Assembly: GCF_035084215.1 (NCBI RefSeq)
Contig: NC_090365.1
Location: 1,922,001-1,986,000, forward strand
DNA length: 64,000 bases
DNA from: Heptranchias perlo
Lineage: Eukaryota
Reading direction: 5' to 3'
Shown: piece after piece, positions 1,091 through 58,783 of the stretch
How the letters are laid out: each line of letters starts with the position of its first letter
Position numbering within the stretch: position 1 is the first letter of the stretch
The notes under the pieces: model-generated
Database searches by the model: none
Told to the model about the DNA's origin: nothing
What the model saw: only the letters and a program-made list of their open reading frames with translations
Translations under genes and position numbers: made by a program

Positions 1091-1375
<285 letters not shown>

Positions 1376-1414
1376 TTATTCCATCTCCTCCCCCGGATGA
1401 ATTCTCATCCTCAA

Positions 1415-1887
1415 AAAGAACGAACGTGCATTTCTACAGTGCATTCACTCCCTCAGGACATCCCAAAACACTTTACAGTCAATGAAGTATTTTTTGAAAT
1501 GTAGTCACTGTAGTAACGTAGGGAAACACGGCAGCTAATTTTGCGCACAGCAAGATCCCACAAACAGCAATGAGGTAATGACCAGATAATCTGTTTATAG
1601 TGATGTTGGTTGAGGGATAAATATTGGCCCCAGGACACCGAGGAGAACTCCCCTGCTCTTCTTTGAAATAGTGGCCATGGGATCTTTTACATCCACCTGA
1701 GGGGGCAGACGGGGCCTCGGTTTAACGTCTCATCCGAAAGACGGCACCTCAGACAGTGCAGCACTCCCTCAGTACTGACGCTGGAGTGTCGGCCTAGATA
1801 CTGTGCTCAAGTCTCTGGAGTGGGACTTCAACACACAAACTTCTAACCCAGGAGGCAAGAGTGCTACCACTGAGCCATGGCTGATAC
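1415..1887 (-). mobile_element. tRNA-derived SINE (DeuSINE/SacSINE1-like), near full length
   Basis: tRNA-like head with A/B boxes at the right end, conserved body (GGGATCTTGCTGTGCGCAAA) and L2-like tail; the same family recurs >15 times in the window. Confidence 0.85.
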
Positions 1888-1957
1888 TAGAATCATCTAT
1901 CTATAATATATTAAATATCTTAATATGTATGCACTTCCTCAACTACCCCCCCCAATC

Positions 1958-2127
1958 AATTCCTATATCCATATTTACAATGGAAACTGCCTATGTAAAC
2001 ACGTCACAGTGTAATTCCGCCCTCCCACCAGGGGAGGTGCTGCAGCGCCACCACTGAGCAGAGGGTGTAATTACAACCTGACCAGTTTACGTAGGCAGGT
2101 TCAATTATAAATGTGGACACAGGAATT
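1958..2127. repeat. Palindromic dispersed repeat, copy 1 (CTCF-like core)
   Basis: Arms TCCATATTTACAATGGAAACTGCCTATGTAAAC and GTTTACGTAGGCAGGTTCAATTATAAATGTGGA are imperfect inverted repeats; homologous to 38071-38247 and 57125-57275. Confidence 0.7.
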
Positions 2128-2369
2128 TATCACTGAAATATAAAAAGACAAGGACAAAGCGTGTAACTTTAAAGTGAACTGTGTCTGTGAACCCTTGTCC
2201 AATTACGCCCGCACCCTCGAACCCCACCGCTCTGGGTCTCGACTCCCCCAGTATAATACCACAGATCAACTACTGTAGCGAAGGATTTCAGGATCGCAGA
2301 ATGAAAAACCCGTAGCAAGCAGATTTACAGAACCGCCCCCATCCCCCATCGGCACGGATCACCCTTTAC

Positions 2370-2486
2370 CTTTCCGCAAAAACGGAACATGGTCGTCCTC
2401 GATCGGGCGGTAGTACGTGTCCCCGTTAAAGTACGTCACCTCTAAAGGATGCAGCTGCAACAGGCCCAGCTTATGAAGCCTCTTCT
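2370..2486 (-). CDS. QPCTL: QPCTL exon 6 (EKRLHKLGLL...IEDDHVPFLRK)
   Basis: Conserved QC motif IEDDHVPFL; acceptor ctctctAG (2488-2487); donor G|GTAAAG (2369); 117 nt, phase 1-1. Confidence 0.95.
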
Positions 2487-2837
2487 CTAGAGAGAAAGAG
2501 ACCAGTGTTAGTGGGCACTCACCCTCGTACGCCCTCCCCCGCCCGCAGACCCACACCGCCTCCCACCCTCTCCACGAGCTGAAACCGTGTCCCCCTAACT
2601 CGTCAAAGTGACTATTCTTCATTCTGAAGGCCGGCTGATATTCGGCCCTCTCCCTAATCCAGAGGCCAATCGATACACCCATTGTTTTGGTGCGTGCGTG
2701 AGGGGAGGGCAGGATACGGTTCGACTGACGCTCTTCCTGGTTAACCAGACTGCCAGCACTCGCTGCCTGGGCTCACACAGGATGAACAGCCACTGGAGTG
2801 AGAAAGTGGAGCTCGGAGCCCATCACATGGGACCCCA

Positions 2838-3772
2838 TGAAGGGCCAGGGCCCACGGGGGGGGGGGGGGGGGGGGGCACGAAGGGCCAGGGCCCACAGGA
2901 CGGGGGGAGGGGGGGGGGGGCACGAAGGGCCAGGGCCCACAGGACGGGGGGAGGGGGGGGGCACGAAGGGCCAGGGCCCACAGGACGGGGGGAGGGGGGG
3001 GGCACGAAGGGCCAGGGCCCACAGGACGGGGGGAGCACGAAGGGCCAGGGCCCACAGGACGGGGGGAGCACGAAGGGCCAGGGCCCACAGGACGGGGGGA
3101 GCACGAAGGGCCAGGGCCCACAGGACGGGGGGAGGGGGGGGGCACGAAGGGCCAGGGCCCACAGGACGGGGGGAGGGGGGGGGCACGAAGGGCCAGGGCC
3201 CACAGGACGGGGGGAGGGGGGGGGGCACGAAGGGCCAGGGCCCACAGGACGGGGGGAGGGGGGGGGGCACGAAGGGCCAGGGCCCACAGGACGGGGGGAG
3301 GGGGGGGGCACGAAGGGCCAGGGCCCACAGGACGGGGGGAGGGGGGGGGCACGAAGGGCCAGGGCCCACAGGACGGGGGGAGGGGGGGGGCACGAAGGGC
3401 CAGGGCCCACAGGACGGGGGGAGGGGGGGGCACGAAGGGCCAGGGCCCACAGGACGGGGGGAGGGGGGGGGCACGAAGGGCCAGGGCCCACAGGACGGGG
3501 GGAGGGGGGGGGGGCACGAAGGGCCAGGGCCCACAGGACGGGGGGAGGGGGGGGGGCACGAAGGGCCAGGGCCCACAGGACGGGGGGAGGGGGGGGGGGC
3601 ACGAAGGGCCAGGGCCCACAGGACGGGGGGAGGGGGGGGGGGGCACGAAGGGCCAGGGCCCACAGGACGGGGGGAGGGGGGGGGGGCACGAAGGGCCAGG
3701 GCCCACAGGACGGGGGGAGGGGGGGGGGCACGAAGGGCCAGGGCCCACAGGACGGGGGGAGGGGCACGAAGG
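2838..3772 (+). repeat. G-rich minisatellite, ~31-45-bp unit CACGAAGGGCCAGGGCCCACAGGACG6AG(n), in QPCTL intron 5
   Basis: Over 20 tandem copies with variable poly-G length; explains the long low-complexity ORFs at 2608-4075. Confidence 0.95.
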
Positions 3773-3834
3773 CGAATGATTGAGAAGAAATTTCAGCCCA
3801 CTTCTAGTGCTCAGATTTATAGAGAGATCCTCAC

Positions 3835-3934
3835 CGATCCCGACCATCCGACTGAACCAGCGGGCTGTGTTCTTGAAGTGGTTCAGGAACAGCGGCTTTG
3901 CTGCACCCAGAAGGTCCAGGAGCACAAACAAGTC
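3835..3934 (-). CDS. QPCTL: QPCTL exon 5 (DLFVLLDLLGA...WFSRMVGI)
   Basis: Motif LFVLLDLLG; acceptor tttcAG (3936-3935); donor G|GTGAGG (3834); 100 nt, phase 0-1. Confidence 0.95.
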
Positions 3935-4144
3935 CTGAAACAGACAGAAAGACTGATCAAGAATTAAACAGGGACCCCCCCCCCCTCCCCCGCCAATGAA
4001 GGTGCAAATATCATTACAGCAAGATCCATCCCCACAGAGAGGTGGAGGAGAAGGCCACTCAACACGAGGGTCCAATAGTGACTATTGTGCAACTCGGTCA
4101 GGGATTGGTGCTGGGAATGGAACACAATCCACATCAGACACCCT

Positions 4145-4548
4145 CTGTCCCATCAAACATCAAACACTCCCAGGGCAGGTACAGCACGGGTTAGAAACAG
4201 AGTAAAGCTCCCTCTACACTGTCCCATCAAACACTCCCAGGGCAGGTACAGGGTTAGATACAGAGTAAAGCTCCCTCTACACTGTCCCATCAAACACTCC
4301 CAGGGCAGGTACAGGGTTAGATACAGAGTAAAGCTCCCTCTACACTGTCCCATCAAACACTCCCAGGGCAGGTACAGGGTTAGATACAGAGTAAAGCTCC
4401 CTCTACACTGTCCCATCAAACACTCCCAGGGCAGGTACAGCACGGGTTAGAAACAGAGTAAAGCTCCCTCTACACTGTCCCATCAAACACTCCCAGGGCA
4501 GGTACAGGGTTAGAAACAGAGTAAAGCTCCCTCTACACTGTCCCAAAC
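4145..4548 (+). repeat. ~60-bp tandem repeat (ACACTCCCAGGGCAGGTACAGGGTTAGATACAGAGTAAAGCTCCCTCTACACTGTCCCATCAA)
   Basis: About 6 near-identical tandem copies in QPCTL intron 4. Confidence 0.95.
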
Positions 4549-4740
4549 AGCATTAATGCTAACTCGGCTCAGACTGGGGAGAAGACTGTGAGCTGTTGGG
4601 TCTGTATTGCTTAGTTGCACTGACTGGGGAGAAGTTTATGGGAGGGGACTCCCCATTCACCTTCAAACTCATGAGCTTCACCGTAAATGCTCTTTGATGT
4701 CAAGCCCTCGGCAACTCAGTTATTTTCCGAGTCATACAGG

Positions 4741-6230
<1,490 letters not shown>

Positions 6231-6459
6231 CGACTGACAAACGTAAAAAAATTTAAGATTGGAAAAAAAGACAGACAATTGCTGGGAATGAAAACCATGG
6301 AGAAACTGTGTTAATCGGAGATCAAACTCACAGCTCGAGTCCTTCCACCCTGGACCCTTCCAGATTTCCACTGGGTGGGGGGAGAGATCTGGGGAACATT
6401 CTCCCCAAAAAGCAGAGGCTAGGTCAAATGAAAATTTAAAAAACACAGAGATTGAAGAG

Positions 6460-7461
<1,002 letters not shown>

Positions 7462-7807
7462 TCACATCAGAGCCCAAACCCTGTCATCACCCAACATGTA
7501 TAATTTTACTTCTTACGGTAAACTCGATTTAGTAGTTTAGCCTGAACCACCCAAGAATTTGCATCAATATAGCCCCTTTAACATAGGAAACTGTCCCTAA
7601 CACAGCCCGTCACCAGTGTGGAGATATCACTATACAGCAGTGGCTTTTTGTGAAAAGAATATTGGGAAGTGACCTGAATTGCAAGAACTCCTTCAGCTCC
7701 ACTTTGACTCGAGACCTGAGCTTGGGTCCATCATGAGCTCCTTTGAGAAGTGAGGGGGGTTGATGCTGAAACAGGAACAAGAGGAAACATTTGAGCCGCA
7801 AACCCAC

Positions 7808-7954
7808 CTGCCGGACAACCTCGATGCCCTCTGACCCCGGGTATCGCTCGATCAGCATTGGCATCAGGAACACATTCCACAGGCGATGGAAGTCGATGAG
7901 TGAGGTGAGCTGCCTCACCTGACTCGACAAGAAACTCTTCGGTTTGTGCTCGCG
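7808..7954 (-). CDS. QPCTL: QPCTL exon 2 (REHKPK...LMPMLIERYPGSEGIEVVRQ)
   Basis: Motif L.P.LIERYPGS.G...VRQ; acceptor caacAG (7956-7955); donor CAG|GTGGGT (7807); 147 nt. Confidence 0.95.
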
Positions 7955-8724
7955 CTGTTGGGAAAAAGATTTCAGAACACAACAGAGTCTAATTTTCATT
8001 CAACCTGAACATGTTGGAAATGAGACAGGAGGAGGGACTTTCACTGAAACCAAGATCGACCTAACCCCCAGCATCCCTCCTCCGGCAACCCGGAAATATT
8101 TAATTTAAAAAAAAGTTTGGATAATTCCCCCGATGACTGACCTGTGCCCAATCCACACAGACCAGAAGTTCCCAGTTTGATTCCCAGTCCGTCCCGAGTT
8201 AGTTCCATAGAAATTACAACATGGAGGCTGGATGATCAGCCCAATCAATTGGTGTTTATCCTCCACATGAGCTGTAGCCTTAATCCCATGTACCTGCTCT
8301 GGTCCCTTGTCCCATTTTTCTTCATCTACCTGTCTAACCCATCCTTCATTGTTGACATGGGATCTGCTTCAATCACTAACTCTGGTAGCACATTCCACGG
8401 CCCCACAACCCTCTTTGTAAAAAAAAACATTTCTCCTGCTCTCTGCCCTTACATTTAATCTGATATCTATCTCCACTTGTTCCAGACCCTTAAAAAAAAT
8501 CACTGGGATCAGTCTATTTCTATCTACTGTCCCATCCCGTCATAATTTTAAACACCTCTATCAAGACGCCCCTTAATCTCCTGTTCTAACAAAAAAAAAC
8601 AATTTTTAAAAGTCTTTCTTTGTATTTCCTCATTCGAGTGAATTGGTGCTGTACCCCCTCTAAACATCCTTCCTATAATGTGGAATCCAATATTGTTCAG
8701 TACTTCAACCGTGCACAAATTGGC

Positions 8725-9090
8725 ACATAATCCAGGCTGACACTCCCAGTGCAGTACTGCACTCTTTTTCAGACGAGATGTTAAACTGAGGCCCCGTCTT
8801 CCCTCTCAGGTAGGCATAAAAGATCCCACAGCCGCTATTTCAAAGAAGGAGTAGGGGAGTTCTCCCCGGTGTTCTGCCTGATATTTATCGCTCAACCAAC
8901 ATCATTAAAGAATACAGAGTTTCTGGTCATTATCATATTGCTGTTTGTGGGATCTTGCTGTGCAGAAATTGGCTGCCGCATTTCCTACATTACAACAGTG
9001 ACTACACTTCAAAAAAAGTACTTCATTGGCTGTAAAGCACTTTGGGACGTCCTGAAAGGCACTGTTTTAATGTAAATTCATTCTTTCTTT
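8725..9090 (+). mobile_element. DeuSINE-like SINE, partial
   Basis: Same body and tail as the other copies. Confidence 0.8.
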
Positions 9091-9735
9091 GAGCTCATGC
9101 GAAGGTTTTAATATAGATTCACCATTACATCTCAACTTTTATATTCTACACCTCTTGCCATAAAACCCAGTATTCCATTAGTGTTTTTAATGGATTTACC
9201 CACTTGGACGTTCTGCTTTTAATATCTTGTGAACCCCCAAATCTCTCCACATCTCCCAACCTTCCCCCATTCAAACTATAATGACTACTTTCATTTAAAA
9301 AAAAACACAAAACCTGCCATCTCACATTTTTTGCTCAATTCTAGCAATTTGAGTGAAATTACTAAAATTTAACAAACTTAAAAAAAAACCCCAAACCCTG
9401 CATCACTAGGCTACAAGCGGCGAATAATACAAAAAAAACTGAGCGGAAAGGAATTAACCCACAATCAGGATTGGACACGGAACCCAGAGTTAAATGGAGA
9501 ATCCCAGGGTCACTCGGTGTAATTAACAGTAGAACTTACACCAGATGTTACAACGGAACTGTAACACCCTCTTAAAACAAAAACAGATCTGAATTCACAA
9601 ACTAAATTTGTAAAAACTATTAGAATTGAGTTTAAGATTAAATATAAAGGGAGGGGACTTTGTATCGGCCGAGGTCGGAGCCACATTGTTGCAGTTTGAA
9701 TGTCACAATGTGTTTTTTTGGTGGGAGCCGCGTAC

Positions 9736-9921
9736 CTTTTGCTGGATCCAATCCGCCTGCATTTCCTCGCTGTGTTCGGCCGTGGAATAAAGCCCCCAAA
9801 TAATGTAGAGGACCGTGAGGGCGAAGGAGGCGAAGAGCAAGGCCGCTCCCCAGGGGATCCCAGCCAGAGGGGAGCGCTTGTCGGAGCGGGAGGCGCGGGC
9901 ATTCCTGGCTGATTTAGACAT
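9736..9921 (-). CDS. QPCTL: QPCTL exon 1 (basic cytosolic tail plus transmembrane signal anchor)
   Basis: ATG at 9921; MSKSARNARASRSDKR followed by hydrophobic WGAALLFASFALTVLYIIWGL (type II anchor typical of Golgi isoQC rather than secreted QPCT); donor AAG|GTACGC (9735). Spliced CDS is 1146 nt = 381 aa. Confidence 0.88.
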
Positions 9922-10322
9922 GACCGGTGACCGGGGAAAGAGACAAGGCTCTCAGTGGATCTGTTAAACCCTATTTTTTTAAAAAAAACAAAATTGCACA
10001 TTTATATTCCCCCCCCCCAAAAAAAAAACAAAATTAAAAGAGTTCAAACGTGACTCAGTTCCCACTGGTCAGTTTGTGTGCCGCAGGGCGATTCCCTGCT
10101 CCTCCGGGCAGTTTATTAAATCCTTGTCTCTCTTCCTCTGAACCCACTTTATACAATCAGTTTAAAAAAGGAGACGCAGAATGATGACATGAGACTGTGG
10201 GCGTTCTCTATTCTTAAAAAGGCACCTTCTCTTCACTCGGATGTTCCTGACTGACAGCCACTGCGGTAAAGAAAGGCTGAAAAATAAGTGCATCAAATAT
10301 TATCTGAATCACTTTGCCCATC

Positions 10323-11659: not shown

Positions 11660-12597
11660 AGGCCAGTAAATGGGAGAAAGGAGAGGGCACCAGTAAATGG
11701 GGGAATTAGAGGAGGGCACCAGTAAATGGGGGAATTAGGGGAGGGCACCAGTAAATGGGGGAATTAGAGGAGGGCACCAGTAAATGGGGGAATTAGGGGA
11801 GGGCACCAGTAAATGGGGGAATTAGGGGAGGGCACCAGTAAATGGGGGAATTAGGGGAGGGCACCAGTAAATGGGGGAATTAGGGGAGGGCACCAGTAAA
11901 TGGAGGAATTAGAGGAGGGCACCAGTAAATGGGGGAATTAGGGGAGGGCATCAGTAAATGGGGGAATTAGAGGAGGGCACCAGTAAATGGGGGAATTGGG
12001 GAATGCACCTGGGAATTGGGGGAGGGCACCTGTAAATGGGGGAATTGGGGGAGGGTACCTGTAATTGGGGGAATTGGGGGAGTGCACCTGTAAATGGGGG
12101 AATTGGGGGAGGGTACCTGTAATTGGGGGAGGGTACCTGTAAATGGGGGAGTGCACCAGTAAATGGGGGAATTGGGGAATGCACCTGGGAATTGGGGGAG
12201 TGCACCTGTAAATGGGGGAATTGGGGGAGTGCACCAGTAAATGGGGGAATTGGGGGAGTGCACCAGTAAATGGGGGAATTAGAGGAGGGCACCTGTAATT
12301 GGAGGAGTGCACCTGTAAATGGGGGAATTGGGGGAGTGCACCAGTAAATGGGGGAATTAGAGGAGGGCACCTGTAATTGGAGGAGTGCACCTGTAAATGG
12401 GGGAATTGGGGGAGTGCACCAGTAAATGGGGGAATTAGATGAGGGCACCTGTAATTGGAGGAGTGCACCTGTAAATGGGGGAATTGGGGGAGGGTACCTG
12501 TAATTGGGGGAGGGTACCTGTAAATGGGGGAATTGGGGGAGGGTACCTGTAATTGGGGGAGTGCACCTGTAAATGGGGGAATTGGGGGAGTGCACCA
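11660..12597 (+). repeat. G-rich minisatellite, ~29-bp unit GGGCACCAGTAAATGGGGGAATTAGGGGA and variants
   Basis: Homogeneous 29-mers from 11685 to 11990, then mixed longer and shorter variants. Confidence 0.95.
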
Positions 12598-12604
12598 TGA
12601 AATG

Positions 12605-12995
12605 GCCTCTTTTCTCGAGAAAAGAGATGACTGAGACGTGATCTGATCACCTTTAAAATTATAGACTAGGTATAGAGACGTTCCCAATTGTGGAGGTGTC
12701 CAAATCTATTGGCCATAAATCCACGATTAATAAATCCAATAAGGAATTCAGGAGAAACGTACTTACCCAGAGAGCAGATAGAATGTGGAACTCGCTATCA
12801 CAAGGAATGGTTGAGGCGAATAGCACAGATGCATTTAAGGGGAAGCTGGATAAACACATGAGGGAGAAAGGAATAGAAGGATATGCTGATAGGGTGAGAT
12901 GAATTAGGGAGGGAGGATGCTTGTCTGGAGCATAAACACCGGCATAGACCAGTTGGGCCGAATGGCCTGTTTCTGTGCCATAAATTCATTGTAAT
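12605..12995 (+). mobile_element. CR1 LINE 3' fragment
   Basis: EFRRN..TQR..RMWNSL...FKGKLDKHMREKGIEGY; 3' end GGGCCGAATGGCCTGTTTCTGTG. Confidence 0.85.
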
Positions 12996-16328: not shown

Positions 16329-18221
16329 TCACCTCCCCTCCTCCTTCTTTAATGTGTCGCCGGGCTGCACCCAGTTATTGTCATGGAGTCCGATTCGGCA
16401 GCCCGGTGTGTCTCTGTCTTTTCGCCGGCAGCACATCCAGTAGGAGCGTCCATAAGGCAGGTCGTGGTGGTAAGGTTTGGGGTGCCAGCGGCAGAGGGAG
16501 ACGTCCCCCCTCTCGTAGCGCCTCTTGCACTGCTTGCAGGGGTCGTCCCGGTACTGGGGGTCCCGGTTCCACCGGGAGTCCGTGGCCCGGATGCCGTAGG
16601 CCTCGATGACGCACTTGAAGTGGTGGCAGGCGCACTTGAGGGCGGCCAGGGACCGGGTGGGGAGGTAGCCGAGGATTTTCACCGTCACGTGATCAGGCAG
16701 GAGCAGCAGGTACTGTCGGGGCTCCAGGAGACGCTGGATCTTGAAGCGGATTTCCAGGAAGTCGTGGGAGACGTGGCGGTAGAGGCAGTAGAGGGAGGCG
16801 TCCGGCTGGTCAGTCTCGGAGCTCAACAGGACTCCCTTCTCCTTGGCCTCCGGCCGGCCCGGGCTGGCCTTCCTCTCGGCCGGCTCGTCCCCCACACCGG
16901 GCTGCTCCTCGGGGCTCTGGGCCAGGGAGTGCAGGAAGAACAGCTGGCCGGGCGGAGGGTCCTCGCAGGAAGGGCACTTGGCGTCCTGGCTCGGGCCGCT
17001 GACCGTCACGCAGACCGTGTCCTCCTTGTCGGCTTGGGCGCCGTCGCGGCCGAAGAAGACGCACTGGTCCAGGCCGCCCGTCACCACCACCTCCACGTGG
17101 AAGCCGTTCAGGCAGTCACGGGACGCGCTCTTCTCTGACGGGGAGGCGCCGGCGCCTTCGGGCGGCCCGTCCCTCCGCGGCTCTTCAGCTGGGTGGGGCG
17201 GCGCCATCTCCACATCCGACCGGGAGCGGGTCACGCCGCCATTGCTGTTGCCGCTGCTGCTAGGTGGGAATTCGGAGGAGGAGGAGGAGGAGGAGGGGCT
17301 GACGATTTGGTACAGGTCGCACGTGATCTTCTCCAAGGCTCCGTGGTGAAGGGTGTGGTTGCAGCTCATGAAGATGCAGCCGGGCCCGGCGGCGGACGAG
17401 GCCTCGGCCGGCGAGCGGCCGTCCCCGCTGGCCACCCGGAAGGCGATGCGCACCTCGCCGGAGGAGCAGGCGGCGCAGTCCGGCCCGGGACCCTCGTACT
17501 CCGGCCCGGGACCCTCCCGCTGGGCGGACTCGATCTTGGCGACGGCCTCGGCCACCCGGCTGACGTCGCCGGCCTCCTCCCGCTCCTCGGGGGCCGCCGC
17601 CGCCACCACCATCGGCGGCGGCGGGGGCTCAGCCGCTTGCTCTGGCCCGGCCTGACCCCGCGGAGCCGCGCACGACCTCTGCTCCACCCGCGCCACCATC
17701 TCGGCCACAGAGACCGGGTCCACCTCGCGCGGCGTCTCCGAGCACACGGTCGCGGCCTCCTCCTCCTCCTCCTCCTCTGCCGCCGGTGGCGGCCGACGCG
17801 GCTCCTTGGCCCTCGCCGGGCAGCCCTTGGTCGGATCGTGTGATTTCCGCCGCCTTTTTGGCTTCGTCCCGTCCGTGCTCCAGTTACCCTTCACCTTCAC
17901 CGCGTTCGTCCGGCCGCCACCGCCACCGCCGTTGCCGCACTGGTGCGCCACGAAGAAGGCGATCTTCTCCTTGGTGTTGCCCGGCTTGATGACGTACCAG
18001 GTGTCCAGCATGACCCGCCCCTCCTCCCCTTGCCCGTCCCCCGGGGCGGAGGAGGAGGAGGGGGCCGGGGGCGTGTTCTCTGAGCACGAGGGCTCGCTCT
18101 CTTTGGGCCTGGCATCCCCCGCGGTCTTTTTGACGCTGATGCAGCACTGCTTGTTCTGGGAGTAGGTGCCGAAAGGCCTGGGGCACCAGAGTCTTATGCG
18201 GGAGAAAGTGTTCTGGTCCAT
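16329..18221 (-). CDS. FBXO46: F-box only protein 46, single coding exon, 630 aa
   Basis: N-terminal LWCPRPFGTYSQN and DTWYVIKPGNTKEKIAFFVAHQC; F-box LLLLPDHVTVKILGYLPTRSLAALKCAC; C-terminal DDPCKQCKRRYERGDVSLCRWHPKPYHHDLPYGRSYWMCC. The ORF-track start is a GTG; the true ATG is at 18221 (gcacaATGg); acceptor tttcgcAG at 18317-18316. Confidence 0.95.
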   Translation of the reverse strand: MDQNTFSRIRLWCPRPFGTYSQNKQCCISVKKTAGDARPKESEPSCSENTPPAPSSSSAPGDGQGEEGRVMLDTWYVIKPGNTKEKIAFFVAHQCGNGGGGGGRTNAVKVKGNWSTDGTKPKRRRKSHDPTKGCPARAKEPRRPPPAAEEEEEEEAATVCSETPREVDPVSVAEMVARVEQRSCAAPRGQAGPEQAAEPPPPPMVVAAAAPEEREEAGDVSRVAEAVAKIESAQREGPGPEYEGPGPDCAACSSGEVRIAFRVASGDGRSPAEASSAAGPGCIFMSCNHTLHHGALEKITCDLYQIVSPSSSSSSSEFPPSSSGNSNGGVTRSRSDVEMAPPHPAEEPRRDGPPEGAGASPSEKSASRDCLNGFHVEVVVTGGLDQCVFFGRDGAQADKEDTVCVTVSGPSQDAKCPSCEDPPPGQLFFLHSLAQSPEEQPGVGDEPAERKASPGRPEAKEKGVLLSSETDQPDASLYCLYRHVSHDFLEIRFKIQRLLEPRQYLLLLPDHVTVKILGYLPTRSLAALKCACHHFKCVIEAYGIRATDSRWNRDPQYRDDPCKQCKRRYERGDVSLCRWHPKPYHHDLPYGRSYWMCCRRKDRDTPGCRIGLHDNNWVQPGDTLKKEEGR

Positions 18222-22289: not shown

Positions 22290-23400
22290 AAGATGGTAGT
22301 GGTTGTTGGAGGCCAATCATCTCAGCCCCAGGACATCGTGTAGGAGTTCCTCAGGGCAGTGTCCTGGGCCCGACTAAGTTCAGCTGCTTCGTCAATGACC
22401 TTCCCTGCTGCATAAGGTCAGAAGTGGGGATGTTCGCTGACGATTGGAGCTGCACACCGTGCACTCACTATCCCTCAGATAATGAAGCAGTCTGAGCCCG
22501 CATGCAGCAAGACCTGGACAACATCCAGGCTTGGGCTGATAAGCGGCAAGTAACATTCATGCTACACAAGTGCCAGGCAATGACCATCTCTAACAAGAGA
22601 GAGTCTAACCACCTTCCCTTGACATTCAACGGCATTACCATCGCCGAATTCCCCACCATCAACATCCTGGGGGTCACCGTTGATCAGAAACTCAACTGGA
22701 CCAGCCATATAAATCCTACAAGAGCAGGTCAGAGGCTGGGTATTCTGCGGTGAGTGACTCACCTCCTGACTCCCCAAAGCCTTTCCACCATCTACATGCA
22801 CATCAGGAGAGTGATGGAATACTCTCCACTTACCTGGATGAGTGCAGCTCCAACAACATTCAAGAAGCTCGACACCATCCAGGACGCTTGATTGGCACCC
22901 CATCCACCACCCTAAACATTCACTCCCTTCACCACCGGCACACTGTGGCTGCAGTGTGTACCATCCACAGGATGCACTGCAGCAACTCGCCAAGGCTTCT
23001 TCGACAGCACCTCCCAAACCCGTGACCTCTACCACTTAGAAGGACAAGAGCAGCAGGCACATGGGAACAACACCACCTGCACATTCCCCTCCAAGTCCCG
23101 ACTTGGAAATATATCGCCGTTCCTTCATCGTCGCTGGGTCAAAATCCTGGAATTCCCTACCTAACAGCACTGTGGGAGAACCTTCATTACAACAGGGACT
23201 ACACTTCAAAAGGTGCTTCCTTGGCGCTTTGGGACGTCCTGAGGTCATGAAAGGCGCTGTATAAATGCAAGTCTTTCTTTACCTTCACCACACGGGCTGC
23301 AGCCATTCAAGAAGAAGGCAGCCCACCACCACCTTCTCAAGGGCAACTAGGGATGGGCAATAAATGCCAGCCTCGCCAGCGACACCCACATCCTGAGAAT
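22290..23400 (+). mobile_element. CR1-clade LINE fragment with RT motifs (GVPQGSVLGP, MFADD)
   Basis: RT motifs in ORF 22220-22495; QQDLDNIQAWA; frameshifted; short SINE tail inserted at ~23185-23280. Confidence 0.85.
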
Positions 23401-47823: not shown

Positions 47824-49827
47824 ATGCAGCCAATCAGCCACAGCGACCACGTCCTGCAGCAGCTGTGCTCCCAGCTGGAATACGGCTTCCTGTGCGACTG
47901 CTCCATCGCCGTGGGCGACGTCTACTTCCGGGCCCACCGGGTAGTCCTGGCCGCCTGCAGCTCGTACTTCCACAAGCTCTTCGTCAACCAGCCGGCGGAG
48001 ACCTCGCAGCTCAGCCTCAGCTCCCAGGCTGTCAGCCCCGACCATTTCGACCTGATCCTGCAGCTGATGTACACCGGACGCCTGAAGTCATCCCCAGCCG
48101 ACCCCGAGCGGTTCAGAGCCTCGCTCAACTTCCTGAAGCTTTATAACGCCCCCCGGTTTTTCAGGACGGTGACGGTGGGAGAGTGGGAGAGCGAGGAGAG
48201 GGTCCCTGCCGCCTTGGGGTCTGAGGAAACCAACCAGCTGGTCTTTGGCGTCCAGCTCTGCCGGGAGAACGAGGCGGCCGGGGAGGCCCTGGAGCCGAGC
48301 CTTGGCCAAAATCACCCGGCCTCGGTCACCGTCAAGGCCGAAACCCCCGAGGACGCCGCGGAGTCACGGAGCTTCCTCTGCCGCCTCTGCGGCCTGGGAT
48401 TCGACGAGCACTGGCGTCTGAGGGACCACCTGCAGCTTCACGCGCAGCAGCCTTTCCGTTGCTTGCTCTGCGGCCTGGTCTTCGATGGCAGCCAGCAGCT
48501 GCAGGAGCACGTCTGCGGGTGCGGAGAGGGCTACGCGGATGGGGGGCACCGCCAGGAGGAGAAGGCGGAGAAACTGGCGGCTCACGAGGTCAAGCAAGAG
48601 GCGGAGCCGGCAGAGAGGGTGGGGGGCGACGACTGCCCGACCGGCCAAACCTGCGGGAAGGTGCGGGAAGGAGCCAGCAAGGACTTGGGCCCTGACCTGA
48701 AGAAGCCAAAGCTGGAGGAGGCGGAGGAGGAAGGGCCGCCTGTCCTGTTGCTCCGCGGCTGCGAGGCGGAGGATTGCGAGGCGGAGGATTACGAGCTGGA
48801 GGAGGGAGAGGTGAGGTTCCCTGGCGACGACGACCTGGTTCTGGAGAACGCCTCGGACGACGGCTCCTTCAGCAGCTCCGACAGCAGCCTGGAGGCTGAC
48901 AGCGCCTGCGAGGGGTCGGCGCGGACGGAGCCGAGTGAGGACGAGGGCGCCGGGGCGGTGGCGCTGCCGGACACCCGGCTAACCTGCCACGTCTGCGGCA
49001 TCGCCTTTAAGTCGGAGGAGCGCTACACCCGGCACGCGGCCCGGCACTCGGGGAAGGCGTACCGCTGCCGGGCGTGCGAGGGCTGCCGCCCCTCCGGGGA
49101 GTGGCCGGCGGGCGCCGCGGGCCAACACGCCACGAGCCAGCTGGGTGCCGCCCGGGGGGGGAGGGCGAACGGAGTGGCGACCCGCTCCTCGCTACGCGGC
49201 TCGCCCGGCGACTCCCGCAGGCAGAGGGCGCTCCGGGAGCAGGCGGAGGTGGTCAGCGGCGGGAGGGGGAGGGGGAGAGGGCGCAGCAAGCCCACCTGTG
49301 CCCCGCACTTTGCGCAGGGCGTGGAGAGGAAGCAGCACCGTGTCGCCGGGGCGAGGAAACGCAACGTGCCCCGTAAGCACTTCTGCAGCATCTGCGAGAA
49401 AGGCTTCATCCGGCGAGGGCACCTGACGGAGCACGTGGCCACCCACGGCAAGGGGAAGCAGTTCCCCTGCCAGACCTGCGGGCGGGAATTCCTGCGGCAG
49501 CGCGAGCTGCGGCTGCACCTGGCCATGCACACCGGCAAAGCCAGGTACGAGTGCCAGTTCTGCGGGCAGGGCAGCTACCGGAAGAACAACCACCTGCGCC
49601 ACGTGGCCTGCCACCTGACCGAGGGCCAGGCCATCTGCCAGGTGTGTTTTGAGATCTTACGCAACGAGGAGGAACTCACAAGGCACCTGGAGAGTCACCT
49701 TTACCCCTGCCGAGGGTGCGGGGAGAAATTCCGGTTGAAGAAGGAGATGGCGACGCACGCCGCCAGCTGCTGGATGAAGAAGCTGCTCGATACAGAACCA
49801 GCGGGTAGCCAAAGAGACGAGGATTGA
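47824..49827 (+). CDS. ZBTB1-like BTB/POZ zinc-finger protein, 667 aa (probably a paralogue rather than the ZBTB1 orthologue)
   Basis: Acceptor ttttccAG ends at 47801; ATG at 47824; BTB SHSDHVLQQL...GFLCDCSIAVGDVYFRAHRVVLAACSSYF...FDLILQLMY; ZBTB1-type C-terminal fingers FLRQRELRLH, CGQGSYRKNNHLRH, ICQVCFEI...HLYPC. Confidence 0.9.
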   Translation: MQPISHSDHVLQQLCSQLEYGFLCDCSIAVGDVYFRAHRVVLAACSSYFHKLFVNQPAETSQLSLSSQAVSPDHFDLILQLMYTGRLKSSPADPERFRASLNFLKLYNAPRFFRTVTVGEWESEERVPAALGSEETNQLVFGVQLCRENEAAGEALEPSLGQNHPASVTVKAETPEDAAESRSFLCRLCGLGFDEHWRLRDHLQLHAQQPFRCLLCGLVFDGSQQLQEHVCGCGEGYADGGHRQEEKAEKLAAHEVKQEAEPAERVGGDDCPTGQTCGKVREGASKDLGPDLKKPKLEEAEEEGPPVLLLRGCEAEDCEAEDYELEEGEVRFPGDDDLVLENASDDGSFSSSDSSLEADSACEGSARTEPSEDEGAGAVALPDTRLTCHVCGIAFKSEERYTRHAARHSGKAYRCRACEGCRPSGEWPAGAAGQHATSQLGAARGGRANGVATRSSLRGSPGDSRRQRALREQAEVVSGGRGRGRGRSKPTCAPHFAQGVERKQHRVAGARKRNVPRKHFCSICEKGFIRRGHLTEHVATHGKGKQFPCQTCGREFLRQRELRLHLAMHTGKARYECQFCGQGSYRKNNHLRHVACHLTEGQAICQVCFEILRNEEELTRHLESHLYPCRGCGEKFRLKKEMATHAASCWMKKLLDTEPAGSQRDED

Positions 49828-53910: not shown

Positions 53911-54547
53911 TTAATACTTATCTTTTTTCTTCTTTTTCTTCTTGTGACCCAGGTCCATCTCACGGGGCGGGGTCCGTGGGATCTCTCCGGCCTCGCCTTT
54001 CCTCCTCTTCTTCCGCTTTCCATGTTCTGGGGTTGTTGCTCCTCTATCGGAGTGTTCGTCCTCCTCCTCCGGCTCTTTGCTCCTCTTTTTCTTCTTTTTC
54101 CGAACATCGCCCGGTGCTTCAGGGTCCGCGGTTTCTAGGAGAGCCTTGCAACCGTCGACCACCGTCTTTTCTTCCATCCTCTTCCTCCTCTTGGTGCCGG
54201 GGCCCCCCTCGTCGCCAGGCTCCGGCCGTTTCCTCGGCGACCGCCCAGGCGGGGCTGCGCCAAAAGGCCGGAACCTCAGCTTCAAGCCCTCCGGGATGCT
54301 GGGCGCCGGGCTAGCGGGGATGGAGTGAGGCTGGCCGCCGTCACTCGTGTCCTCCCAGCTCTCCCCGATGTTAATGCAGCCGGCAAACGGTGGGCAGCTG
54401 GCCGCTCGGCCTGCCGCCTCGGAGGGGAGGACGAGGCAGACGCCTCCTGTTCCGCTGTCTGTACCGAACACGTTGTAAAGTCTGTCTCTGCATGTCTTGG
54501 ACTTGAGCGTCTGAAAACCGACCAACGGGATCTTCCTTCCAGAGAAA
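53911..54547 (-). CDS. POLR1G: POLR1G (CD3EAP/PAF49/RPA34) exon 3
   Basis: FSGRKIPLVG...IPASPAPSIPEGLKLRFRPFG (RPA34.5 family motif) followed by a Lys-rich tail; acceptor catttcAG (54549-54548); phase 2. Confidence 0.9.
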
Positions 54548-54654
54548 CTGAAATGGAAAATTATTAAAAAGAGATCAAGCCCAGCCCAGTTAGGCCCAAG
54601 TGCAAATAGAACAACGTCCCATAATTGGCCTCTCGCAGCGAACCTTGCTGGGAT

Positions 54655-55050
54655 AAGAAAGGACTTGATTTATATCACACCTTTCACAATCTCAGGATGT
54701 CGCAAAGCTCTTTACAGCCAATGAAGTACTTTTTGAAGTGTAGTCACTGTTCTAATGTAAGAAATATGGCAGCCAATTTGCGCACAGCAAGGTCCCACAA
54801 ACAGCAATGAGATAATGACCAGATAATCTGTTTTAGTGATGTTGGTTACAGTTTAACTATTGGCCCAGGACACCAGGGAGACCTCCCCCGCTCTTCTTCC
54901 AAGTAGTAGCCGTGGGATCTTTTACGTCCACCTGAGGGGCAAACGGGGCCTCAGTACTGCACTGGGAGTGTCAGCCTGGATTATGTGCTCAGGTTTCTGG
55001 AGTGGGACTTGAACCCACAACCTCCTGATTCAGAGGCGAGAGTGCTGCCC
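54655..55050 (-). mobile_element. DeuSINE-like SINE
   Basis: Conserved tail, body and B-box. Confidence 0.85.
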
Positions 55051-55454
55051 AAAGAGTTCAACGTGCCTCAATTTTTTAGTCAACCCTTTCCCCATAAGTA
55101 GCCTTTCTTAGTGTCTGAGCCTGGGACAATATTTGACGGCGAGGGGCATCATAGCAAAGCCTGATAGAACTGGAGGTTTGCAGTACAGAGGAGGTCATTC
55201 AGCCCATCATTTCTGTGACAACTCTTTGCTAGAGTAATCCCTACTGCCCTGCTCTCACCCCATATCTTCCACTGCTTCAAATGTTTATTTGCTCTTCCCT
55301 TAAAAAATGCAGGGGTCTCTGCCTCAACTGTTCTGTGCAAAACATTCCAACAACCCCCTGCATAAAGATATTTCTTTTAACCTCTCTCCTCACTCAGTTA
55401 AATTGATGATAATTGTCCCCAACCAAAGGAAATGGCCTTCAACTACTCACCCTA

Positions 55455-55692
55455 TTCGTCTGTGGAATTTGCTGCCCCAGGAAGCTGTGGAAGCTACATC
55501 ATTAAATAAATTTAAAACAGAAATAGACAGTTTCCTAGAAGTAAAGGGAATTAGGGGTTACGGGGAGCGGGCAGGAAATTGGACATGAATTTAGATTTGA
55601 GGTTAGGATCAGATCAGCCATGATCTTATTGAATGGCGGAGCAGGCTCGAAGGGCTGATTGGCCTACTCCTGCTCCTATTTCTTATGTTCTT
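55455..55692 (+). mobile_element. CR1 LINE 3' fragment
   Basis: RLWNLLPQEAVEA.S...FKTEIDSFL..KGIRGYGE; CR1 3' UTR. Confidence 0.8.
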
Positions 55693-55880
55693 ATTAAACC
55701 CTTTATAATTTTCAAAATCTCTCTGCCTTGGACTCACCTGCCTGGTGTGGTACTGAGCAGGGCTAGGAGCACAACACAGAGTCCCAGAACCCCTGGGTTA
55801 GGGAGGGGGAATAAAAATCAGTCTGGGTCCCTGCTTTGAATCATTATGCAGTGACACCTGAGAAGCAAGACTGTGCGAAA

Positions 55881-55950
55881 CCCCCGAAAGCTTGTGGGAT
55901 TAAAAATAAAATCGTTGGACTATAACTTGGTGTTGTAAAATTGTTTACAA
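55881..55950 (+). mobile_element. 70-bp PLE 3' stub containing the 3' half of the hammerhead motif, with an 8-bp TSD
   Basis: CCGAAAGCTTGTG...AAATAAAATCGTTGGACTATAACTTGGTGTTGTAA homologous to the PLE ends; GTGCGAAA at 55873-55880 and 55951-55958. Confidence 0.7.
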
Positions 55951-56239
55951 GTGCGAAATGTTGAGAAGGGGTCAGGGTTAGACTCAGCGGTGATGACCCG
56001 CACAGTTGAATGACCTGTTCCAGTGCTCGCACGTAAGGTACCAGAAGGCTGCGTAGCAACCATTGACCTGTGCCTTGCACAAATCAATGCCGTCAGAAGA
56101 TGGGGGGAGGAGGTTGGAGATTAGGAGTACAGGAAACTTTGGCACTCCTAGAGAGGGAAGAGTCGTCTTTAGTTTTGAAAGCACAGTCTCCCACCCACAG
56201 GTGTAAATGTTCACCTCCCCAATCTCCCAGGACGCTCAC

Positions 56240-56387
56240 CTCTGGGGATCGAAGTCCGCAGGGGCTTTGATGAGCCAGAGCTCGGTGGAGGGGTCGTTTA
56301 CTTTCTCCAGCGTGAGATCGCGGGACGCTGAGCGCGGGCACGGCGTAAAATCCGGCGGGCACTCGAACTTCGTCATCTTACCAGGCC
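56240..56387 (-). CDS. POLR1G: POLR1G exon 2 (FECPPDF...TELWLIKAPADFDP)
   Basis: Family motifs F.CPP.F and TELWLI.APADF; acceptor ttttcAG (56389-56388); donor AG|GTGAGC (56239); 148 nt, phase 1-2. Confidence 0.92.
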
Positions 56388-56669
56388 CTGAAAACACAGG
56401 AGAGCAAAGCGGACTCACAACAAGTTCTTCATTGTCTTACAACTGCCCCAACCCACGGGTTGTATCCCTCCCGCCTAGAACCAGTGGCCAGGACACCGGG
56501 AGAACCCTTGGCTCTGCTTTGAACAGTGTCACAGGACCTTTAATGACCACAGCAGGTGGACACAGTCCTTCGGTTTAATGAAGGCCGGCACCTTGGTGCT
56601 GCACTGTATCAGCCTCCATTAGCCCCGGAGTGAGGTTTGAACCCAGAACCGTCCAAGTCAAACTAAACT

Positions 56670-57012
56670 CGCAGCAACTCGCCAAGGCTTCTTCGACAGC
56701 CCCTCCCAAACCCGCGACCTCTACCACCTAGAAGGACAAGGGCAGCAGGTACATGGGAACAACACCACCTGCACGTTCCCCTCCAAGTCACACACCATCC
56801 CGACTTGGAAATATATCGCTGTTCCTTCATCGTCGCTGGGTCAAAATCCTGGAACTCCCTTCCTAACAGCACTGTGGGAGAACCTTCACCACACGGACTG
56901 CAGCGGTTCAAGAAGGCGGCTCACCGCCACCTTCTCAAGGGCAATTAGGGATGGGCAATAAATGCTGGCCTCGCCAGCGACGCCCACATCCCATGAACGA
57001 ATAATAAAAAAA
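56670..57012 (+). mobile_element. CR1-clade LINE 3' end
   Basis: Nearly identical to 5178-5505. Confidence 0.85.
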
Positions 57013-57124
57013 ACACACCAAAGTTTAATGGCTTCTGATTTTTGCTGGACTCACTCGAACCAGCTTCACAGCAGCAAGATGGCTGAAGTCAGTGAAGTGC
57101 CAGTGCCACAAAGGCGGGAAAGCA

Positions 57125-57275
57125 CAATTACAGCGTGATGTTTACATAGGCAGTTTCCGTTATAAATGTGGATGTAGGAATTTTTAAGTGGAAATATAAA
57201 AATAAGGATATTAAAATGAGGACAGGATTATATCTGCCTGCCCTGGTCTAGTTATCCCCGGTTTCTAACCCCGTA
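57125..57275. repeat. Half copy of the palindromic dispersed repeat
   Basis: GTTTACATAGGCAGTTTCCGTTATAAATGTGGA...; its reverse complement aligns by eye with 37987-38130. Confidence 0.65.
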
Positions 57276-57864
57276 CTTCATTTGAACACCACACTTGGTC
57301 CTGACTTAATGGGGGTGAATTTTTGCTGGGGTTCTCCAGTTTTCCTGATGGAAGCAGGCAAATTAAAATCTCTTGTCACGCAAGTCCTGGTTTATTTCTC
57401 AATATTCTTTGTGGCCCCTCGAATTCCGTTAAATCAATCAGGAAACACATTCCAGAATGCACCGAAACAAAAATATACAGAAGACAACAAAAAATAATTT
57501 ATGATAAGCTCTTCCCAAGTTAAAACTAAAATGTGGAATTAAACAGGAAAATGGGCATGTGATTCCCGGCAAATATCAGCACACTCCCAGGAATACTGAG
57601 ACATTCCCAGGAACCCCCACCCACAAATACAACCTCCTGGGAAGCCCCTACTAATACGGAGTGTTTTATTCATTAGATTGTCTTTGAAGTTTGTGGGCTT
57701 AGAAAGGGCTGTTGTCTCATTGATGGGTAAATCCTAAACCAGAACCCCGAGATCTGGCAGCAGCGGCAGCTTGGAATATCTGGGAATTAGTGGGATCAGG
57801 GGGTGAAATCTTAACCGCAGTGCCCCAGGACCCAGGACAGTTTGGACATTCCTGATGTAGGATG

Positions 57865-58640
57865 TGTCTGTACCGGGGTGGGGGGGGGGGTCTGTCTGTA
57901 CCTGGGGGGGGGGGGGGAAATCTGTCTGTACCTGGGGGAGGGGGGAAATCTGTCTGTACCTGGGGGGGGGGGGGGAAATCTGTCTGTACCTGGGGGGGGG
58001 GGGGAAATCTGTCTGTACCTGGGGGGGGGGGGAAATCTGTCTGTACCTGGGGGAGGGGGGAAATCTGTCTGTACCTGGGGGGGGGGGGAAATCTGTCTGT
58101 ACCTGGGGGGGGAAATCTGTCTGTACCGGGGTGGGGGGGGGGGGGTCTGTCTGTACCTGGGGGGGGGGGGGGAATCTGTCTGTACCTGGGGGGGGGGGGA
58201 ATCTGTCTGTACCTGGGGGGGGGGGGAAATCTGTCTGTACCTGGGGGGGGGGGGGAAATCTGTCTGTACCTGGGGGAGGGGGGAAATCTGTCTGTACCTG
58301 GGGGAGGGGGGAAATCTGTCTGTACCAGGGGGGGGGGGGGGGGAGCTGTCTGAACCTTGGGGGAGGGGGTCGGTCTCTCTGTACCCGGGGATGAGGGGAG
58401 GGGTATGAGGTCTGTCTGTACCTGGGGGGGGGGGGGGCTGTCTGAACCTTGGGGGCGGGGGTCGGTCTCTCTGTACCCGGGGATGAGGGGGGGAGGGGGA
58501 TCTGTCTGTACCTGGGGGGGGGGGGAATCTGTCTGTACCTGGGGGGGGGGGGGGGCTGTCTGAACCTTGGGGGAGGGGGATCTATCTGTACCCGGGGATG
58601 AGGGGGGGGGGGGGGGGATGAGGTCTGTCTGTACCCGGGG
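57865..58640 (+). repeat. G-rich minisatellite AAATCTGTCTGTACCTG(n), ~27-33-bp unit, in POLR1G intron 1
   Basis: Over 20 copies with poly-G runs. Confidence 0.95.
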
Positions 58641-58674
58641 GAGGAGCCTCCTTCAGCTGAGCCCCGCCCCTCAC

Positions 58675-58783
58675 CTGCCGTCTCGCCGCTCCGCCCTCCT
58701 GTGCCCGGCGGTGTGTCGGGGGTTTCGGCCTCACTCTCCGCCTCACTGTCGGACACCTCCCACCGTTGCCTCGCCATCGCCAT
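58675..58783 (-). CDS. POLR1G: Probable POLR1G exon 1 (MAMARQRWEVSDSEAESEAETPD...)
   Basis: CpG-rich; ATGs at 58783 and 58777; strong donor CAG|GTGAGG (58674); phase 1 fits exon 2, giving 894 nt = 297 aa; this peptide has no recognisable homology. Confidence 0.7.

What the first reader, a model, noticed from the sequence alone, without database searches (positions are those of the whole stretch)
47824..49827. ZBTB1-like gene in a 19q13-type neighbourhood: candidate ohnologue lost from mammals
Seen: BTB domain and C-terminal fingers follow the distinctive ZBTB1 pattern (CGQGxxRKxxHxRH, ICQVCFxI, HLYxC), but the middle is very divergent. Known: human ZBTB1 is at 14q23, while QPCTL, FBXO46, NANOS2 and POLR1G are at 19q13.32; 14q2 and 19q13 are paralogous (FBXO34/FBXO46, SIX4/SIX5, FOS/FOSB, RTN1/RTN2). 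I recall no ZBTB1-like gene in that human region. Inference: a whole-genome-duplication sister of ZBTB1, a lymphocyte-development and translesion-synthesis factor, retained in cartilaginous fish.
Basis: partly seen in the sequence, partly recalled or inferred. Interest (0 to 1): 0.7.

Follow-up and report, generated by a model that had tools for sequence, protein, structure and literature searches.

The report
Shark sister gene of ZBTB1
This shark gene is an ancient duplicate of ZBTB1, a gene mice need to make T cells, and it is kept in sharks, rays and several early-branching bony fishes but was not found in land vertebrates.

Summary
The ORF is real: 47824-49827 (+), 667 aa, one coding exon, BTB plus eight fingers, with all three ZBTB1-type motifs. 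It has orthologues in 13 named sharks and rays. A profile search also found orthologues in reedfish, bichir, sturgeon, paddlefish, gar, one elopomorph teleost and (truncated) lungfish. Bichir and lungfish each carry a canonical ZBTB1 as well. Trees split the family into canonical ZBTB1 and this 'ZBTB1L' group (100/100). So the duplication most likely predates the shark/bony-fish split, and the QPCTL-FBXO46-nanos-POLR1G setting fits the 14q/19q13 paralogon. Still open: a canonical ZBTB1 in this genome is only inferred from one unnamed protein; the alternative root is not rejected (p 0.052, 0.066); absence from tetrapods is not proven. The CCHC finger that I recall as ZBTB1's ubiquitin-binding UBZ4 is lost in 10 of 10 elasmobranch copies. 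A translesion-synthesis role is therefore unlikely, and a BTB-zinc-finger transcription regulator is the best reading. No paper on the gene was found; databases label it 'ZBTB1-like' or 'ZBTB18-like'. It is an undescribed member of a familiar class, ohnologues lost on the way to mammals.

The parts
47824..49827 (+). Complete coding sequence of ZBTB1L, 667 aa, single coding exon
   Evidence: 58% identity over full length to the Heterodontus ZBTB1-like protein
47872..48144 (+). BTB/POZ domain (residues 17-107)
   Evidence: Pfam PF00651 E 8.8e-22; 87-91% identical in 9 of 9 elasmobranch orthologues over residues 5-108
48373..48522 (+). Two N-terminal fingers (residues 184-233). The second (CCHC) matches the first finger of ZBTB1; the first is an elasmobranch addition
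   Evidence: finger inventory; C213, C216, H229 and C233 invariant in 24 of 24 rows
48784..48849 (+). Acidic 22-residue motif (321-342) conserved in elasmobranch copies only; candidate partner-binding or activation patch (inference)
   Evidence: near-invariant in 9 of 10 elasmobranch rows, slightly changed in the tenth, absent from 8 canonical rows
48979..49047 (+). Central C2H2 finger (residues 386-408), at the position of the second ZBTB1 finger; intact here, not intact in the other nine elasmobranch copies
49285..49347 (+). Possible relic of the CCHC finger before the tail (residues 488-508): C491, F495 and H504 keep the spacing, first and last Cys are replaced
   Evidence: finger intact in 18 of 18 canonical and 5 of 5 ray-finned ZBTB1L rows, not intact in any of 10 elasmobranch rows. 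Its identity as UBZ4 is recalled, not from a call; the relic could be chance
49378..49770 (+). ZBTB1-type five-finger tail (residues 519-649), ending in Cys instead of His
   Evidence: a profile of the last three fingers scores canonical rows 100-144 bits, ray-finned ZBTB1L 69-74 and 11 named other ZBTB proteins 10-41
44237..44400 (+). Putative promoter and non-coding first exon: ZNF143-type, ETS-type and NRF1-type motifs in a CpG-rich patch, then a GTGAGT donor at 44401
   Evidence: The ZNF143- and NRF1-type motifs are rare in shuffles (0 and 1 of 100 reach the count), the ETS-type is not (43 of 100). Motif names are recalled; no transcript evidence
47774..47823 (+). Pyrimidine tract and splice acceptor (AG ends 47801), 22 nt before the ATG
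1091..9951 (-). Neighbour: QPCTL-type glutaminyl cyclase (exons seen at about 9703-9951, 7610-7999, 6910-7461, 1091-1225)
16329..18221 (-). Neighbour: FBXO46-like F-box gene, 630 aa
39748..40248 (+). Neighbour: nanos gene (NANOS2 by context only)
53911..58782 (-). Neighbour: POLR1G (RPA34); last exon confirmed, two upstream exons read by eye

Best explanation
A functional BTB-zinc-finger transcription-factor gene, 'ZBTB1L', the sister of ZBTB1 from an early-vertebrate whole-genome duplication. ZBTB1 stayed on the 14q-type chromosome and ZBTB1L on the 19q13-type one. Both were present in the jawed-vertebrate ancestor. ZBTB1L evolved faster and survives in elasmobranchs, non-teleost ray-finned fish and at least one elopomorph. 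It appears truncated in lungfish and is probably lost in tetrapods and most teleosts. Likely working (inferred from family knowledge): the BTB dimerises and recruits co-repressors, and the five-finger tail binds DNA sites related but not identical to those of ZBTB1. It is probably expressed broadly from a housekeeping-type promoter. Without the CCHC finger before the tail it probably does not do ZBTB1's ubiquitin-guided damage-tolerance job. Shown: ORF, domains, conservation, two clades, two species with both genes. Inferred: WGD origin, losses, all function.
For: 13 of the 14 best hits are named sharks and rays; the other has no species name. 76 of the next 105 rows are named bony vertebrates, ZBTB1 where a product is named. 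Four divergent relatives from the 50%-cluster search were named as sturgeon, reedfish, gar and Aldrovandia, with paddlefish, bichir and lungfish added. Polypterus senegalus and Protopterus annectens each have both genes. The 466-column tree of 34 rows separates 16 ZBTB1L from 18 canonical rows at 100/100, and both halves roughly follow the species tree. BTB trees rooted on other ZBTBs give ZBTB1L as a clade at 96/88 and, without the five longest rows, 95/88. AU tests reject joining the shark copies with P0203 (p 9e-5) and a duplication within ray-finned fish (p 0.003). Of 34 informative columns, 20 unite shark and bony ZBTB1L, 11 unite shark with canonical and 3 unite bony ZBTB1L with canonical. 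Lamb 2021 (PMC8040251, supplement) places PLEKHG3, SPTB, FOS and RTN1 (chr14) and PLEKHG2, SPTBN4, FOSB and RTN2 (chr19) in quads C and D of paralogon 3.
Against: The tree with shark ZBTB1L plus canonical ZBTB1 as one clade is not rejected on the BTB alone (p 0.052 and 0.066). Outgroup-free rooting with a non-reversible model was diffuse and gave the preferred root only 0.8%. No named cartilaginous-fish canonical ZBTB1 was listed; the only candidate, P0203, is unnamed. ZBTB2 and ZBTB25 were not available as outgroups. Raw identity to bony ZBTB1L (BTB 51-62%, ray-finned tail 47-52%) is no higher than to canonical ZBTB1. The synteny of bony-fish ZBTB1L was not seen. There are no expression data.
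Confidence: 0.82

Rival explanations
1. It is the true elasmobranch ZBTB1, moved to a GC-rich 19q13-type microchromosome and fast-evolving; the bony-fish 'like' genes are a separate older lineage.
For: No named cartilaginous canonical ZBTB1 in three searches; this root is not rejected; non-reversible rooting gave 7.3% to the ray-finned-L stem against 0.8% to the preferred branch.
Against: P0203 is a canonical-type protein that is sister to all 17 bony ZBTB1 rows (99/96), the place expected of a cartilaginous-fish ZBTB1. It scores 578 bits against coelacanth, below the 648-bit end's list, and shares only 10 five-residue words with the query, which explains its absence. This rival also needs about 1.0-1.3 changes per site on the bony ZBTB1 stem against roughly 0.3-0.5 afterwards. 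Both rooted BTB trees prefer the other root.
Confidence: 0.07
2. An old small-scale duplicate or retrocopy of ZBTB1 from before the jawed-vertebrate split that landed on the paralogous chromosome by chance or moved there later.
For: The coding region has no intron; nothing seen here shows the same neighbours in bony fish; ZBTB1, FBXO46 and QPCTL are not in the held part of Lamb's ohnologue tables.
Against: The location matches the quad C/D pairing, which a random insertion would seldom hit. A splice acceptor 22 nt before the ATG and an upstream donor suggest an intron-bearing gene. Canonical ZBTB1 also has nearly all its coding sequence in one exon (recalled).
Confidence: 0.08
3. Reciprocal retention: a true ohnologue, but elasmobranchs lost canonical ZBTB1 and use this copy in its place; P0203 would then be a holocephalan or cyclostome protein.
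For: P0203 has no species name; no named elasmobranch canonical ZBTB1 was listed.
Against: Both search cut-offs explain the gap. A 50% cluster can stand for many species. NCBI labels the shark genes '-like', not ZBTB1.
Confidence: 0.1

Closest known systems
ZBTB1 (BTB-ZF/POK factor; human 14q23 recalled; mouse scanT gene, PMC3260866)
   Same: BTB of the same subtype (50-57% identity), first CCHC finger, five-finger tail (53-57%), similar length. Recognition-helix residues, read by eye: first tail finger keeps +3 H and +6 E; second keeps -1 R, +2 R and +6 L.
   Different: Separate clade (100/100); middle 14-19% identical; pre-tail CCHC finger lost; His at the scanT position (C74); last finger ends in Cys; extra N-terminal finger and acidic motif; different neighbours.
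NCBI 'ZBTB1-like' / 'ZBTB18-like' / 'HIC1-like' models of sharks, rays, reedfish, sturgeon, paddlefish, gar and lungfish
   Same: These are its orthologues.
   Different: Automatic labels only, inconsistent between species; no paper found that treats them as one gene. Ray-finned copies keep the pre-tail CCHC finger and lack the N-terminal fingers and the acidic motif.
Ohnologues kept in sharks and early bony fish but lost in tetrapods, e.g. nanos1B (PMC5932020)
   Same: Same retention pattern: chondrichthyans plus basal bony lineages.
   Different: Different family; nanos1B is kept in teleosts, whereas ZBTB1L was found in only one teleost.
ZBTB2 and ZBTB25
   Same: Related BTB subtype (recalled; ZBTB2 clusters rank 11 and 13 in the Atlas).
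   Different: They lack the ZBTB1-type five-finger tail (recalled); the Atlas ranks three ZBTB1 clusters first.

Membership tests
BTB-ZF (ZBTB/POK) family | N-terminal BTB plus C-terminal C2H2 fingers | tested here: met
ZBTB1 subfamily | Best hits among named genes are ZBTB1; ZBTB1-type BTB and finger tail | tested here: met
ZBTB1 subfamily | Closer to ZBTB1 than to ZBTB2 or ZBTB25 in a tree | not tested
   no ZBTB2/25 sequences were returned; Atlas ranking only
ZBTB1 orthologue | Groups with canonical ZBTB1 to the exclusion of other copies | tested here: not met
   the alternative is disfavoured but not rejected (p 0.052, 0.066)
ZBTB1 orthologue | Lies beside ZBTB25 in a 14q23-type neighbourhood (recalled) | tested here: not met
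   no second BTB-ZF gene in the window (tblastn); neighbours are QPCTL, FBXO34/46, nanos and POLR1G
ZBTB1 orthologue | CCHC (UBZ4, recalled) finger before the tail | tested here: not met
   Pfam does not itself call that finger a UBZ
WGD ohnologue pair with ZBTB1 | Duplication predates the shark/bony-fish split | tested here: met
WGD ohnologue pair with ZBTB1 | The two copies lie on paralogous chromosome segments | tested here: inconclusive
   window neighbours fit 19q13 (human positions recalled); 14q/19q13 pairing in PMC8040251 supplement and PMC2211742; no synteny seen for bony ZBTB1L
WGD ohnologue pair with ZBTB1 | Both copies in one genome | tested here: met
   Polypterus senegalus (P0165, P0345 partial) and Protopterus annectens (P0027, P0353 truncated)
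WGD ohnologue pair with ZBTB1 | Canonical ZBTB1 in this genome | not testable with these tools
   no vertebrate genome collection on hand; P0203 is an unnamed candidate
WGD ohnologue pair with ZBTB1 | Single pre-duplication gene in invertebrate chordates; assignment to 1R or 2R | not testable with these tools
   no cyclostome or amphioxus member identified; Lamb and Simakov differ on pairing in this paralogon

The most novel reading that the evidence does not exclude
Elasmobranchs have split, or swapped, the jobs of ZBTB1. ZBTB1L, stripped of the ubiquitin-binding finger but with a strongly conserved BTB and a new acidic motif, acts as a lymphoid-development regulator alongside or instead of canonical ZBTB1. 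That would give a natural test of whether ZBTB1's T-cell role can be separated from its replication-stress role.
Probability: 0.12. Interest if true: 0.65.

Novelty: new member of a known kind. Interest (0 to 1): 0.4.

Why it matters
[quoted passage not shown] A second gene dating from the origin of jawed vertebrates, which has shed the presumed damage-sensing finger in sharks but kept it in gar and sturgeon, is a ready-made domain-swap series. It also corrects annotation: one gene is now labelled ZBTB1-like, ZBTB18-like or HIC1-like in different fishes. The class itself, ohnologues lost on the way to mammals, is common, and no function is shown, so the interest is moderate.

Tried and rejected
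Coelacanth ZBTB1 search: no cartilaginous fish in the 120 of 249 rows listed. I first read this as sharks lacking ZBTB1, then dropped that reading when P0203 scored below the list's end. PDB search gave only generic BTB and finger structures. Pfam did not mark the pre-tail finger as UBZ. Kim et al. 2014 is not held, and two searches led to no passage placing the UBZ4. The Atlas could not separate FBXO46 from FBXO34. Rows left out: 42 Logan-only rows were left out of all alignments and trees; four teleost-like representatives (P0204, P0213, P0220, P0230) and the partial bichir model P0345 were not in the trees. The lungfish model was cut to its first 300 residues, and its non-BTB part is partly misaligned. 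Contig lengths of the gar and reedfish hits could not be tied to chromosome names and are not used. No structure or complex prediction was run. Pseudogene or chance ORF: rejected.

Full report
Observation. The stretch 47824-49827 (+) is one ORF of 667 codons. Its third positions are 88% GC, and 0 of 500 Markov resamples give so long a frame. Pfam finds a BTB at 17-107 and C2H2 fingers; a pattern count gives eight fingers. A splice acceptor ends at 47801. About 3.4 kb upstream, a CpG-rich patch holds ZNF143-, ETS- and NRF1-type motifs and a GTGAGT donor (motif names recalled). This suggests a non-coding first exon and broad expression, but no transcript was seen. No second BTB-ZF gene lies in the window.

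Neighbourhood. POLR1G is confirmed by Pfam and by the human RPA34 chain. The glutaminyl cyclase gene matches QPCTL best in its last exon and QPCT best in a middle exon; its first exon looks like a membrane anchor, so I call it QPCTL. The F-box gene is FBXO46-like, tied with FBXO34 in the Atlas. The nanos paralogue was not identified. That these genes lie at human 19q13.32, and ZBTB1 at 14q23, is recalled. The 14q/19q13 pairing is in Lamb 2021: PLEKHG3, SPTB, FOS and RTN1 in quad C and PLEKHG2, SPTBN4, FOSB and RTN2 in quad D of paralogon 3. SIX4 and SIX5 map to 14q23.1 and 19q13.32. Lamb notes that Simakov et al. pair this group differently, so 1R versus 2R is open. The supplement is held cut, and ZBTB1 is not in the held part.

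Relatives. The first search gave 161 hits, 120 listed. After the query itself, 13 of the top 14 are named sharks and rays at 41-58% identity. Of the next 105, 76 are named bony vertebrates and 29 are unnamed. A coelacanth ZBTB1 search listed 120 of 249 hits and no cartilaginous fish. A mixed profile against 50%-cluster representatives listed 150 rows, 143 of them new; 9 of the 143 belong to the ZBTB1 family. Four resembled teleost ZBTB1. P0203 is a canonical-type protein 41-43% identical to coelacanth, platypus, gar, lungfish, bowfin and bichir ZBTB1 alike. The other four had elasmobranch copies as best hits. The last search named them as Acipenser oxyrinchus, Erpetoichthys, Lepisosteus and Aldrovandia, and added Polyodon, a partial Polypterus model and a 456-aa Protopterus model. 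The lungfish model has the diagnostic BTB and one finger, then an unrelated tail. Polypterus senegalus and Protopterus annectens also have canonical ZBTB1.

Trees. With 34 rows and 466 columns, 16 ZBTB1L and 18 canonical rows are separated at 100/100. Elasmobranch ZBTB1L is one group (95/99), bony ZBTB1L another (85/74), and P0203 is sister to all bony ZBTB1 (99/96). BTB trees rooted on 11 or 7 other named ZBTB proteins give ZBTB1L as a clade at 96/88 and 95/88. Joining shark ZBTB1L with P0203 is rejected (p 9e-5), as is a ray-finned-only duplication (p 0.003). Against my reading: shark ZBTB1L plus canonical ZBTB1 is not rejected (p 0.052 and 0.066), non-reversible rooting was diffuse and gave my root 0.8%, and ZBTB2/25 were missing as outgroups. 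Diagnostic columns run 20 to 11 to 3 in favour of the ZBTB1L grouping, without polarity. P0203 scores 578 bits against coelacanth, under one search's 648-bit end, and shares few words with the window protein, which explains why it was not listed. Its species could not be looked up, so a canonical ZBTB1 in sharks remains an inference.

Losses. No ZBTB1L row from a tetrapod, coelacanth, chimaera, cyclostome or clupeocephalan teleost was named. This is weak. The word filter missed P0203 twice, and the Aldrovandia protein was row 150 of 150, where 134 rows were long finger arrays, so more divergent copies could lie just below. Absence from mammals rests on this plus my recall of the human gene set.

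How it likely works. The BTB is 87-91% identical across nine elasmobranch orthologues, the tail 50-76% and the middle 39-56%, so the gene is under constraint, with the BTB as the core. ZBTB proteins recruit co-repressors through the BTB and bind DNA through the fingers (PMC13664490). Zbtb1's six C-terminal fingers may contact Lmo2 (PMC9582733). The first two tail fingers keep most recognition positions of ZBTB1 with one or two changes each (read by eye), so related sites are likely. The CCHC finger before the tail is intact in 18 of 18 canonical and 5 of 5 ray-finned rows and in none of 10 elasmobranch rows; the window protein keeps a possible relic at 488-508. I recall this finger as the UBZ4 needed for ZBTB1's damage role (Kim et al. 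2014, not held). If so, the shark gene is unlikely to act in translesion synthesis. A 22-residue acidic motif is near-invariant in elasmobranch copies only. The three batoid copies examined have lost the first two tail fingers, so the tail is still changing.

Literature. Searches for ZBTB1 with paralog and shark, cartilaginous (17), Callorhinchus (21), gar and genome duplication (54) and ZBTB1-like names (78) found no paper on this gene; most subscription papers are not covered. Seen as passages only: PMC8326903, PMC5131917, PMC3260866, PMC5932020, PMC6356670, PMC2211742, PMC6116012, PMC9081333, PMC9582733, PMC13664490. PMC8040251: abstract, passages and supplement rows. All other papers: search listing only. 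Supplementary Figure S1 of PMC5932020 (nanos2 synteny) could bear on the gar neighbourhood and was not seen.

Verdict. This is an undescribed early-vertebrate sister of ZBTB1, most likely a WGD ohnologue (0.82), a new member of a known kind. Interest 0.4.

Noticed in passing
window 6910-7461 and 1091-1225 (-): Two exons of the glutaminyl cyclase gene disagree on best hit (QPCT vs QPCTL), probably because human QPCTL has evolved fast.
   Followed up: partly
P0011, P0015, P0016 (Pristis, Leucoraja, Mobula): Batoid ZBTB1L copies have lost the zinc ligands of the first two tail fingers while keeping the last three.
   Followed up: partly
P0353 (Protopterus annectens): The lungfish ZBTB1L model ends in a non-homologous tail: a decaying gene or a mis-annotation.
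   Followed up: partly
P0343 (Aldrovandia affinis): The only teleost found with ZBTB1L, and the most divergent full copy.
   Followed up: partly
P0345 (Polypterus senegalus): The model labelled 'ZBTB1 protein, partial' is ZBTB1L with an unrelated N-terminal part, apparently a chimeric prediction.
   Followed up: partly
window 34688-34700 (-): A second exact ZNF143-type motif, 5 kb upstream of the nanos ORF, with no gene assigned.
   Followed up: no
window 30154-30681 (-) and 30645-31190 (+): Two near-identical, oppositely oriented fragments that look like the GIY-YIG end of a Penelope-like element (by eye).
   Followed up: no
window 5027-5455, 46008-46739, 56667-56948 (+), 22562-23035 (-): Repeated 3' fragments of a LINE-type element (by eye).
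   Followed up: no
window 2800-3790, 11540-12700, 33170-34120, 57720-58650: GC-rich minisatellite arrays that create long spurious ORFs in several frames.
   Followed up: no
window 53911-58782 (-): The POLR1G product seems much shorter than the 510-aa human chain; it lacks most of the long C-terminal tail.
   Followed up: no
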